A DNA stretch of 64,000 nucleotides, taken from assembly GCF_009914755.1 (NCBI RefSeq), contig NC_060935.1; one strand, given 5' to 3'. This document shows positions 57,691 through 59,859 of the stretch, piece after piece; within the stretch, counting starts at the first letter, position 1, and the number at the start of each line of letters is the position of its first letter. The notes under the pieces were generated by a model. It did not search any database, was not told the origin of the DNA, and worked only from the letters and a program-made list of their open reading frames with translations. Made by a program: the position numbers and the translations under genes. This DNA is from the human T2T-CHM13v2.0 reference genome, Homo sapiens.

Positions 57691-57713
57691 TCTGAAAAGA
57701 AGTTAATCTCTTC

Positions 57714-59389
57714 TGAGGGTTTGGTCTTTTTTTTTTTTTTTTTTTTTTACCTTTAGTATACATGTGATTGCTATATTGTAAATGCAGGTTCCTGAAAGAC
57801 TGTTTCTGTAAGCAGAATGACGCCACACAAAGTGAAAAGGTTTTCCTCTTATTCCAGCAGTGTCTTGTCTTCAAAGAGGAGTCCATTACATCTTGCCTTG
57901 ATTTTTATGGTTGTGTTCTTGGATGGAAAGCTGAAGTGGGTAGTAATTTCCAAATGTTCTTTATAATATCCACCCTGTATATTATAAGCAAAGTTGTTTC
58001 GTATTTTGTTGTATCTTTTTCTGTTTAGCACTTTATGGCTTTTTAAGTCTACTGCATTTGAGAATGTAGTTTAGAAATTCTTTCACTGTTAAAGCCATGT
58101 GAAAACTAATAGAGGATAATGAAAGTGAGTGTACATTATTTTGTGTTTAACTTCCTGGTTTGTGGTGTGTGTAAACAAAACATTAGAAATATATTGTCTT
58201 TTTATAATAATACTCTTTGACCTCATTTAAAGTGATCTGCCATGAGGTCTCAATGATCAAGCTTATGTTTATTCTAGTGTGTTTTATTCTAATACCTAAG
58301 GAATTCAGCCAACTTTGTTTCTATCATCGGATAGTCTCAGAAAATAATGTGCTTTATCTATATTACTGCCTCTTTTCAATATTTAAGAGAATAATTGTCT
58401 TCTGGTTTCTACTGAGCCTAGTAATAATCACTAAAGACCTAAAAAAAAAGTGAGTAATCTTTTCCTTCCATTAGAGTATTTGAATAGCCCATTCAAGATA
58501 ATGGTGGTGTGAAAGTAAGTCATCCAAGCTTTTCCGCCACATCTAAATTTTTATTTAATTAATTAAATAATTAACACCCACTTCCAAAGAGTTCAAATGT
58601 TGTCTTAAAGCAGTCACTACTAATTTGCGTTAATCCTGTATATTCAGTGGATGCGAAGTCATAACTTGGTATTGTATCAGAAGTCGTGTTAGTCACTGGT
58701 CTTGCTCTTTGAACATTATTTTCATTTGTAAAATGAGGGAATTGGTTTGTTATGATGGGAAATAAGTTAATTTTAAGGGTCCTGAGAAAGTTGCTTCATT
58801 CATGGCAGTGTTTGGGATCACTTAACTTTTTTTTCAGGTATTTGGTGTCATGTTTTTGGAGTTAATGTTTGGTGCTTACATAATTTTTAATTATTACATA
58901 ATTTTTATTGGTACATGTTTACAGGTATTCTCACCAAACCAGTGGAATGATAGTCTCTCTTAATATGTTATTGCCTGCAATGGCCAAGTAGATATGCCTG
59001 AAAGTCATATGAAAGGTTTTACATGTCTATTAAAATGTGTGTGTACTTTTAAATCTGTAAATGTTATCTGGAATTTTTATTGTGTTAATTTCAGAAGTAT
59101 ATGGGCATTATGACTTTTTCATTGTACAAAAAACATTATTATATTCATAAACATTGGAATACAGAAGTTTCTTGACTGACAATAGGGCTATGTTCCAATA
59201 GACCCACTGTAAACTGAAAATACCATAAGTTAAAAATGCATTTAATACACCAAACCTACTGAACATCCTAGCTTAGCCTAACCTATCTTAAATGTGCTCA
59301 GAACACTTAATGTTGGCCTATAGCTGGGCAAAATCATCTAATACAAAACCTTTTTTATAATAAAATGTTTAATATCTCAGAAAAAAAAG
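57714..59389 (+). pseudogene. 5'-truncated retrocopy of an unidentified mRNA 3'UTR, ending in a MER47-derived poly(A) site
   Basis: 16-bp TSD agaagt(t/c)aatctcttc at 57698-57713 and 59390-59405; AATAAA at 59359-59364; A-run from 59381; AU/GU-rich UTR-like body. Confidence 0.8.
59162..59379 (+). mobile_element. Truncated MER47A-type (TcMar-Tigger) DNA transposon
   Basis: ta|cagaag...aaatgcatttaatacaccaaacctactgaacatcctagcttagcctaacctatcttaaatgtgctcagaacactta...aaaatcatctaatacaaa. The 3' third and right TIR are missing. Confidence 0.8.
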
Positions 59390-59449
59390 AGAAGTCAATC
59401 TCTTCCCCTGCCTTGTTCCTGTCCAGTCATGTTCCTAGGAAAACTAAGA

Positions 59450-59750
59450 GGCTGGACATAGTTGTTCACACCTGTTAATCCCAGCACTTTGGGAGGCTGT
59501 GGCGGGTGGATCACTTGAGGCCAGGAGTTCCACATCAGCCTGGCCAACATGGTAAAACCCCTTCTCTAAAAATACAAAAATTAGCCAGACGTAGTGGTGC
59601 ACACCTGTAATCCCAGCTACTTGGGAGGCTGAGGCATAAGAATTGCATGAACCCAGGAGGTGGAGGTTGCAGTGAGCCGAGATCATGGCTACTGCACTCC
59701 AGCCTGGGTGACAAAGTGAGACTCTGTCTTTAAAAAATAATTAAAAAATA
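59450..59750 (+). mobile_element. Alu (S/J)
   Basis: Full dimer. Confidence 0.95.
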
Positions 59751-59859
59751 AGTAACCAAGGTAGCTTTCCTTACCTTCCTGTTATGCTCATACATGTAAC
59801 ACACACGTAAACATTTTTTTAAACAACAATGTATATGTGTGTAATATAATCTCATTAAT

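What the first reader, a model, noticed from the sequence alone, without database searches (positions are those of the whole stretch)
57698..59405. 3'UTR-only retrocopy whose poly(A) signal was donated by a DNA transposon
Seen: a 1.68-kb insert bounded by a 16-bp TSD (agaagt(t/c)aatctcttc, 1 mismatch). It ends in a MER47A-type element cut off 16 nt after its internal AATAAA (59359) and followed by an A-run. The body is AU/GU-rich and holds GCACTTTA (58028), the 8-mer site of the miR-17/20/106 family. Inference: the parent gene uses an exapted MER47A as its polyadenylation site, and a cut-and-paste element fragment was copied by L1 as an mRNA passenger. I cannot name the parent gene.
Basis: partly seen in the sequence, partly recalled or inferred. 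Interest (0 to 1): 0.7.

Follow-up and report, generated by a model that had tools for sequence, protein, structure and literature searches.

The report
PANK3 retrocopy preserving lost poly(A) signal
This is a 1.7-kb copy of part of the PANK3 gene's untranslated tail, likely pasted here by L1 reverse transcription and likely inert; it is an ordinary kind of leftover, but it keeps an intact AATAAA signal inside a transposon fragment that reads AATGAA in today's gene, so it likely records a message ending that PANK3 has since weakened.

Summary
Window 57714-59389 lies between 16-bp target-site duplications and matches one other locus: chr5:169,086,567-169,084,965 (minus), 5.8-7.4 kb past the PANK3 stop codon, with 8.9% substitutions. 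Homology stops at the duplications. The copy ends at a CA 15 nt after an AATAAA inside a ~366-nt MER47A-type element, which runs on ~145 nt in the parent.

The parent now reads AATGAA. AATAAA is the family state (16 of 26 copies), so the parent likely lost the signal after the copy was made, at a rate that drift can explain. Five more PANK3 copies turned up. Four end 15-22 nt past other AATAAA/ATTAAA signals, two of them 1.7 kb downstream of the transposon. A much older copy covers that distal end, so the transposon likely added a side exit to an existing UTR. The miR-17 8-mer is inherited from the parent.

Both classes are known: 3'UTR-only pseudogenes and transposon-derived poly(A) sites. 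The small novelty is a fossil of such a site's use and later decay. Present-day use could not be tested. Interest 0.3.

The parts
57698..57713 (+). Left target-site duplication (57695-57713 if read as 19 nt); begins in an A-rich L1-endonuclease-like site; its last 3 nt (TTC) also match the parent (5' microhomology)
   Evidence: the endonuclease reading is inference from established L1 biology
57714..59379 (+). Copy of PANK3 3'UTR, parent chr5:169,086,567-169,084,965 minus strand; 141 substitutions in 1,583 aligned columns (8.9%)
57727..57748 (+). T22 run, expanded from a shorter T-tract in the parent; not a poly(A) tail of an opposite-strand insertion
58028..58035 (+). GCACTTTA, miR-17/20/106-family 8-mer match (seed assignment recalled); also present in the parent at 169,086,281, the only such 8-mer in its 9-kb UTR
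59160..59161 (+). TA target dinucleotide of the DNA transposon, copied from the parent
59162..59379 (+). 5' 218 nt of a ~366-nt MER47A-type (Tc1/mariner, non-autonomous) element; left inverted repeat present, right one missing
   Evidence: family name recalled
59359..59364 (+). AATAAA poly(A) signal, the family's ancestral state; AATGAA in today's PANK3
59380..59389 (+). Decayed tail remnant (G, eight A, G); 6-8 A depending on where the TSD is taken to start
59390..59405 (+). Right target-site duplication

Best explanation
The insert is a copy of 1.6 kb of the PANK3 3'UTR, likely made by L1 reverse transcription of a PANK3 RNA that was likely cut and polyadenylated 15 nt after an AATAAA inside a MER47A-type transposon, a signal that reads AATGAA in today's gene and is therefore likely weakened. 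Steps: (1) a ~366-nt TA-flanked transposon sits in the PANK3 3'UTR 7.2 kb past the stop (shown); it likely landed inside an already longer UTR (inferred from a 27%-diverged copy of the distal end). (2) Its built-in AATAAA served as an alternative cleavage signal at least once in the germ line (inferred from the junction). (3) L1 ORF2p primed on the tail at an A-rich chr11 site, copied 1.6 kb and joined the 5' end through 3 nt of microhomology, leaving a 16-19 nt TSD (anatomy shown, enzyme inferred). (4) Later the parent's hexamer changed A to G (polarity shown against the family), at a rate that drift can explain. The copy has no promoter, annotation or coding part and is likely inert. Age is likely about 30-40 million years (recalled calibration).
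For: One paralogue only: 2 matches from 2 candidates, self included. Its gene's exon translates to PDB PANK3, E 1e-77, and the stop codon is at 169,092,353. Homology confined to 57736-59379 when 12 kb of window was compared with 47 kb of chr5; the other hits are Alu- and L1-type repeats. TSD far above chance. The element continues ~145 nt in the parent. Of 22 derived sites in the parent's element the copy shares 14, while 26 other family copies share 0-7. Hexamer: AATAAA in 16 of 26 family copies, A at the fourth position in 92%; the G is parent-private. Junction falls after CA, 15 nt past the hexamer. Four of the five other PANK3 copies end 15-22 nt past AATAAA/ATTAAA, two at the same base within 1 nt, while only 4.4% of UTR positions lie 10-30 nt past such a hexamer. 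A review states that AAUAAA to AAUGAA lowers polyadenylation about 95% (PMC3647115, passage).
Against: The tail is short (6-8 A) and starts with G. The parent is itself fairly A-rich right after the junction (6 A in 10 nt) and shares 5 nt with the start of the 19-nt right TSD, so internal priming is not excluded. Only one copy marks this site; two pattern searches found no other tailed element cut there (1 match each, this locus). No 3'-end sequencing data with coordinates could be read; one study lists 7 PANK3 sites without positions, so the site may still be in use. AATGAA also occurs in 2 of 26 family copies. The family sample is 30 loci from 40 scored of 2,619 candidates, chosen for likeness to the parent. 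That this stretch is annotated PANK3 3'UTR is recalled, and supported here only by strand, position and the copies. Divergences of 8.9%, 7.7% and 6.9% overlap within error, so the order of the three middle-aged copies is not fixed.
Confidence: 0.75

Rival explanations
1. One reading: PANK3 has exapted the transposon's signal and still uses this site; AATGAA works as a variant hexamer.
For: AATGAA is one of the accepted variant hexamers (recalled). PANK3 has 7 listed poly(A) regions in human/chimpanzee cells, positions not given (PMC7954529 supplementary file 2). 145 human sites lie in MER2-type elements (PMC2553571 Table 1).
Against: The canonical hexamer was lost in the parent, the opposite of conservation. 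About 95% lower efficiency is reported for this change. None of the five other copies ends here and two read through it.
Confidence: 0.15
2. Internal priming: L1 primed on the A-rich stretch just after the junction in a longer PANK3 RNA, so no cleavage ever happened here and the AATAAA is a bystander.
For: Parent has 6 A in the 10 nt from the junction, with partial match to the target site; the tail is short.
Against: About 7 extra A-rich nt lie between the junction and the TSD. There is no A-run in the parent, and the family reads TGTAA there, so the stretch may have been less A-rich then. A random stop falls 10-30 nt past AATAAA/ATTAAA at 4.4% of UTR positions. The junction follows CA.
Confidence: 0.08
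3. DNA-level duplication of a chr5 segment, or an independent cut-and-paste insertion of the transposon at chr11.
For: Many family copies also stop aligning to the parent at this same position, because two subtypes diverge there.
Against: Those copies continue into their own 3' half and right inverted repeat; this one runs into an A-run and a TSD. 14 derived sites and 1.4 kb of unique flank are shared with PANK3. Homology ends at the TSDs.
Confidence: 0.01
4. The copy is transcribed and acts as a miR-17-family decoy for PANK3.
For: It keeps the parent's only GCACTTTA 8-mer and a canonical poly(A) signal.
Against: No gene is annotated in the window (hub annotation). No promoter was copied. One site only, not above chance. 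In the transposon part the copy changed at 11 of 209 sites against 8 in the parent, no sign of constraint.
Confidence: 0.02

Closest known systems
Short / 3'UTR-only processed pseudogenes found by TSD and poly(A) signatures (Terai et al. 2010, PMC2831318)
   Same: mRNA-derived, 5'-truncated, last-exon only, ~15-nt TSD, A tract, 5' microhomology; long mRNAs mostly give truncated copies (text parts 1-3 of 4 read). PANK3 fits: 5 of 6 copies found are UTR-only.
   Different: At 1.7 kb it is longer than their median novel copy (356 bp). No chr11 row with a coordinate starting 1289-1293 is in their Table S1; the hg17 position, about 129.16 Mb, is my recalled conversion.
Transposable-element-derived poly(A) sites (PMC2553571)
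   Same: [quoted passage not shown]
   Different: That paper places DNA-transposon sites mainly in terminal inverted repeats and detects them from present-day transcripts. Here the hexamer is internal (about 200 nt into 366), and the evidence is a genomic fossil of a signal that has since mutated.
Processed pseudogenes as fossils of past transcripts (Shemesh 2006 for splicing; Podlaha and Zhang 2009 for expression; both recalled, not read)
   Same: A retrocopy records an RNA isoform of the ancestral germ line.
   Different: Here it records 3'-end choice. Searches listed no paper that reads lost poly(A) sites from retrocopies, but the library lacks most subscription journals.
AAUAAA to AAUGAA signal mutation (FOXP3 in IPEX; PMC3647115)
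   Same: Same base change in the hexamer.
   Different: There it hits the only site and causes disease; here it hits an alternative site with several others available.

Membership tests
L1-mediated processed pseudogene (retrocopy) | Parent transcript elsewhere in the genome, same orientation as the tail | tested here: met
   chr5 PANK3, minus strand
L1-mediated processed pseudogene (retrocopy) | Target-site duplication of about 5-30 nt at both junctions | tested here: met
   16 nt, 1 mismatch; null 4 of 20,000
L1-mediated processed pseudogene (retrocopy) | Non-templated poly(A) tract before the 3' TSD | tested here: inconclusive
   6-8 A, about 7 nt more than parent or target supply, but short and interrupted
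L1-mediated processed pseudogene (retrocopy) | Homology ends at the junctions | tested here: met
L1-mediated processed pseudogene (retrocopy) | Endonuclease-type target site and 5' truncation with microhomology | tested here: met
   Target reads TG/AAAA (near the TT/AAAA consensus); 3-nt microhomology
L1-mediated processed pseudogene (retrocopy) | Loss of introns | not testable with these tools
   The copy lies within the last exon; the sister copy L060 does show spliced exons 1-7
L1-mediated processed pseudogene (retrocopy) | Empty site in outgroup species | not testable with these tools
   No other primate genome is held
MER47A / Tigger5a-type non-autonomous Tc1/mariner element | TA target duplication and terminal inverted repeats, ~366 nt, multicopy | tested here: met
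   Most family copies are TA-flanked, about 345-375 nt, with matching ends; 2,619 candidates. The parent's right end is degenerate.
MER47A / Tigger5a-type non-autonomous Tc1/mariner element | Match to the Repbase/Dfam MER47A consensus rather than a sister subfamily | not testable with these tools
   No repeat library held. Name recalled; PMC5753468 lists TIGGER5A (MER47A) under Mariner/Tc1. The parent's 3' half belongs to one of two subtypes seen.
TE-derived poly(A) site | Hexamer 10-30 nt upstream of the cleavage point, inside the element | tested here: met
   AATAAA 15 nt upstream in the copy; family-ancestral
TE-derived poly(A) site | Transcript 3'-end reads at the site today | not testable with these tools
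   No data with coordinates found
Exapted (selectively kept) poly(A) site | Signal conserved in the host gene | tested here: not met
   Parent-private change to AATGAA
miRNA-decoy pseudogene | Expression and enrichment or conservation of sites | tested here: not met
   One site, 2.5 expected in the window; no annotated gene; expression itself untested

The most novel reading that the evidence does not exclude
The copy is a dated record of the birth and decay of a transposon-donated poly(A) site: a MER47-type element landed inside PANK3's old 3'UTR, opened an exit 1.7 kb short of the ancestral end, was used in the anthropoid germ line, and was then shut by one A-to-G change. With its five sister copies it gives a fossil map of four PANK3 3' ends, and 3'UTR-only retrocopies genome-wide would allow extinct poly(A) sites, invisible to 3'-seq, to be counted and dated.
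Probability: 0.6. Interest if true: 0.45.

Novelty: new member of a known kind. Interest (0 to 1): 0.3.

Why it matters
The element itself is ordinary and likely inert. Its value is as a worked example: surveys of transposon-derived poly(A) sites see only sites in use today, so sites that arose and decayed are missed. Here one copy keeps the ancestral signal that the parent has lost. The same comparison (copy junction against parent hexamer against family state) could be run on all TSD-bounded 3'UTR retrocopies to measure turnover of poly(A) sites. A practical point: five unlisted or easily missed PANK3 UTR copies at 73-95% identity can attract mis-mapped reads or probes.

Tried and rejected
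Opposite-strand insertion with T22 as its tail, or a twin-primed inversion: rejected, the T-tract is in the parent in the same orientation. Segmental duplication: rejected. Body derived from the SLC2A3-like pseudogene inside the PANK3 UTR: rejected, that pseudogene's matches end about 700 nt upstream and the body has no chr12 hit. Recurrent use of this transposon signal in other retrocopies: two pattern searches, one exact with ambiguity codes and one with 3 mismatches, each returned only this locus; decayed tails would be missed. Tandem repeats: two short local duplications in the body, uninformative. Present-day 3'-end data: PMC7954529 lists 7 PANK3 sites without coordinates; PMC3828523 and PMC2553571 supplements were unreadable; PMC11094166 (files 6 and 7 not searched) and PMC7338057 had no PANK3 row. 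Literature: 'MER47A' with 'polyadenylation' 0 papers; 'MER47A' 1 paper; PANK3 with polyadenylation terms 3 and 4 papers, and with 'pseudogene' 18, none about this locus by title or abstract start (listings only). The paper that dates human DNA transposon families was not held, so the element's age is relative only. TSDs for the chr18, chr4 and chr11p copies were not above chance (scores 6, 5, 2; 20 and 44 of 300 random pairs reached 6 and 5).

Full report
Observation. The sequence shows a 16-nt direct repeat at 57698-57713 and 59390-59405 with one mismatch, extendable to 19 nt with two. With both junctions fixed by the parent alignment, 4 of 20,000 random junction pairs in the window gave such a match. 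Between the repeats lie 1,676 nt at 31.6% GC and 38% T, ending in AATAAA (59359), 15 nt, then G, eight A and G. GCACTTTA is at 58028; it is the only match in the window, where 2.5 are expected. AATAAA is common in the window (120 matches), so it means something only through its position.

Parent. A whole-genome search with 57750-59180 gave 2 matches from 2 candidates: itself and chr5:169,085,164-169,086,548 minus. The full alignment has 141 substitutions in 1,583 columns, 8.9% (K2P 0.095), with 23 gaps. Upstream on the same strand lie exons, one of which translates to pantothenate kinase 3 in the PDB at E 1e-77, ahead of PANK2 and PANK1. The stop codon is at 169,092,353, so the copy spans 5.8 to 7.4 kb into the 3' region and holds no coding sequence. 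Comparing 12 kb of window with 47 kb of chr5 gave this one long match, confined to the insert; the other hits are Alu- and L1-type repeats. The 5' junction has 3 nt of microhomology and the T22 run is an expanded parental tract. That the region is annotated PANK3 3'UTR, about 9.07 kb long, is recalled; the measured distance from stop to the distal end marked by two other copies is 9,073 nt.

The transposon. In the parent the element starts behind a TA at 169,085,182 and is about 366 nt long; the copy holds its first 218 nt. Thirty loci were fetched from 44 matches (40 of 2,619 candidates scored). Most are TA-flanked, about 345-375 nt, with matching inverted ends, the anatomy of a non-autonomous Tc1/mariner element. 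The name MER47A is recalled; a Repbase review lists TIGGER5A (MER47A) under Mariner/Tc1 (PMC5753468, passages). After dropping the parent, the chr11 copy and two of three near-identical chr16 duplicates, 26 copies remain. Over 209 well-supported columns the parent and copy share 14 derived changes, 8 are private to the parent and 11 to the copy; other copies share 0-7 of the parent's 22. So the fragment descends from the PANK3 element, and the copy was made a little over halfway through the element's life. Two subtypes of the family diverge exactly at the junction, a coincidence that could mimic truncation, but those copies go on to a right end and this one does not.

The signal. The parent reads AATGAA where the copy reads AATAAA. 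The family reads AATAAA in 16 of 26 copies, AATGAA in 2, other variants in 8; the G is parent-private. The simplest history is one change in the parent after the copy was made. At 8 of 209 sites changed, the chance of a hit somewhere in six bases is about 21% (my arithmetic), so neither purging nor conservation is indicated. A review gives about 95% loss of efficiency for this change and cites it as a cause of IPEX in FOXP3 (PMC3647115, passage, secondary citation).

Sister copies. Searches with other parts of the UTR (counts are lower bounds) found five more. chr11:50.39 Mb: spliced exons 1-7, 4.2% (52 of 1,235), ends 158 nt past the stop, 22 nt after ATTAAA, with an A-run. chr9:83.21 Mb: 4.7% (30 of 640), ends at 169,088,868, 21 nt after AATAAA, 18-nt TSD. 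chr18:61.41 Mb, 6.9% (60 of 866), and chr4:174.88 Mb, 7.7% (25 of 325): both end at 169,083,280-281, 15-16 nt after one AATAAA; their TSDs are not above chance. chr1:98.22 Mb: 27% (138 of 510), aligns through the distal site to 169,083,222, end uncertain, no TSD test made. So 5 of 6 copies, this one included, end 15-22 nt after a canonical hexamer, against 4.4% of UTR positions (that figure uses today's parent). The 27% copy is more diverged than the transposon family (10.3% from its majority), so the distal region was likely transcribed before the element arrived. The chr18 and chr4 RNAs must have read through the element. Their divergences overlap that of this copy within error, so the site was either never exclusive or was already weakened.

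Mechanism and odds. Retrocopy of PANK3 UTR: about 0.98. True cleavage at the transposon signal rather than internal priming: about 0.85; against it are the short tail and a parent with 6 A in 10 nt after the junction. Later loss of the hexamer in the parent: about 0.9. Weak use today: likely but untested. One study lists 7 PANK3 poly(A) regions that differ in use between human and chimpanzee, without coordinates (PMC7954529, passages and supplementary file 2). Supplements that I could not read may hold the position. The age, about 30-40 million years, rests on recalled primate divergence figures.

Comparison with what is known. 3'UTR-only, TSD-bounded pseudogenes are an established class: 4,464 mRNA pseudogenes were listed, and long mRNAs mostly give truncated ones (PMC2831318, parts 1-3 of 4 read). 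Its Table S1 has no chr11 row near my recalled hg17 position and names parents by accession only. Transposon-derived poly(A) sites are also established: 3,188 human sites, 572 in DNA transposons, mostly in terminal repeats (PMC2553571, passages and section 9). Ten searches listed nothing on this locus or on a MER47 site in PANK3; I saw listings only, the library lacks most subscription journals, and genome-browser retrogene tracks could not be checked. Two pattern searches found no other tailed element cut at this point.

Verdict. A real, well-resolved, new member of known kinds. 'Exapted and in use' should read 'likely used once, since decayed'. Interest 0.3; 0.45 if primate data confirm the birth-and-decay history.

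Noticed in passing
L004:4276-5617 (chr5:169,087,276-169,088,617, minus) and L004:8200-8560 (plus): The PANK3 3' region contains a decayed SLC2A3 (GLUT3)-like processed pseudogene: a frame matches PDB GLUT3 at E 3e-26, with related copies on chr1, chr8 and chr12. A second piece 2.6 kb away matches the same loci in the opposite orientation, which may be an inversion. Long PANK3 transcripts would carry it.
   Followed up: partly
L060 (chr11:50,386,466 upward, minus): Full-length spliced PANK3 processed pseudogene with about 330 nt of 5' leader, 4.2% diverged, ending 158 nt past the stop; no TSD found.
   Followed up: yes
L009, L011, L013, L070 (chr18:61.41, chr9:83.21, chr4:174.88, chr1:98.22 Mb): Four more 3'UTR-only PANK3 copies marking two other 3' ends and one very old read-through of the distal end.
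   Followed up: yes
L030-L057: The MER47-type family has two 3' subtypes that diverge exactly 15 nt after the AATAAA; the PANK3 element is of the less A/T-rich subtype and has two further changes right after that point.
   Followed up: partly
window 59446-59756: An Alu begins 40 nt right of the TSD, followed by L1-like A-rich sequence from about 59870; neither belongs to the insert.
   Followed up: no
L041 (chr3:172.49 Mb) and L047 (chr6:129.27 Mb): Two family copies lack a recognisable right end; L041 breaks a few bases after the same junction but runs into unrelated sequence without an A-run.
   Followed up: no
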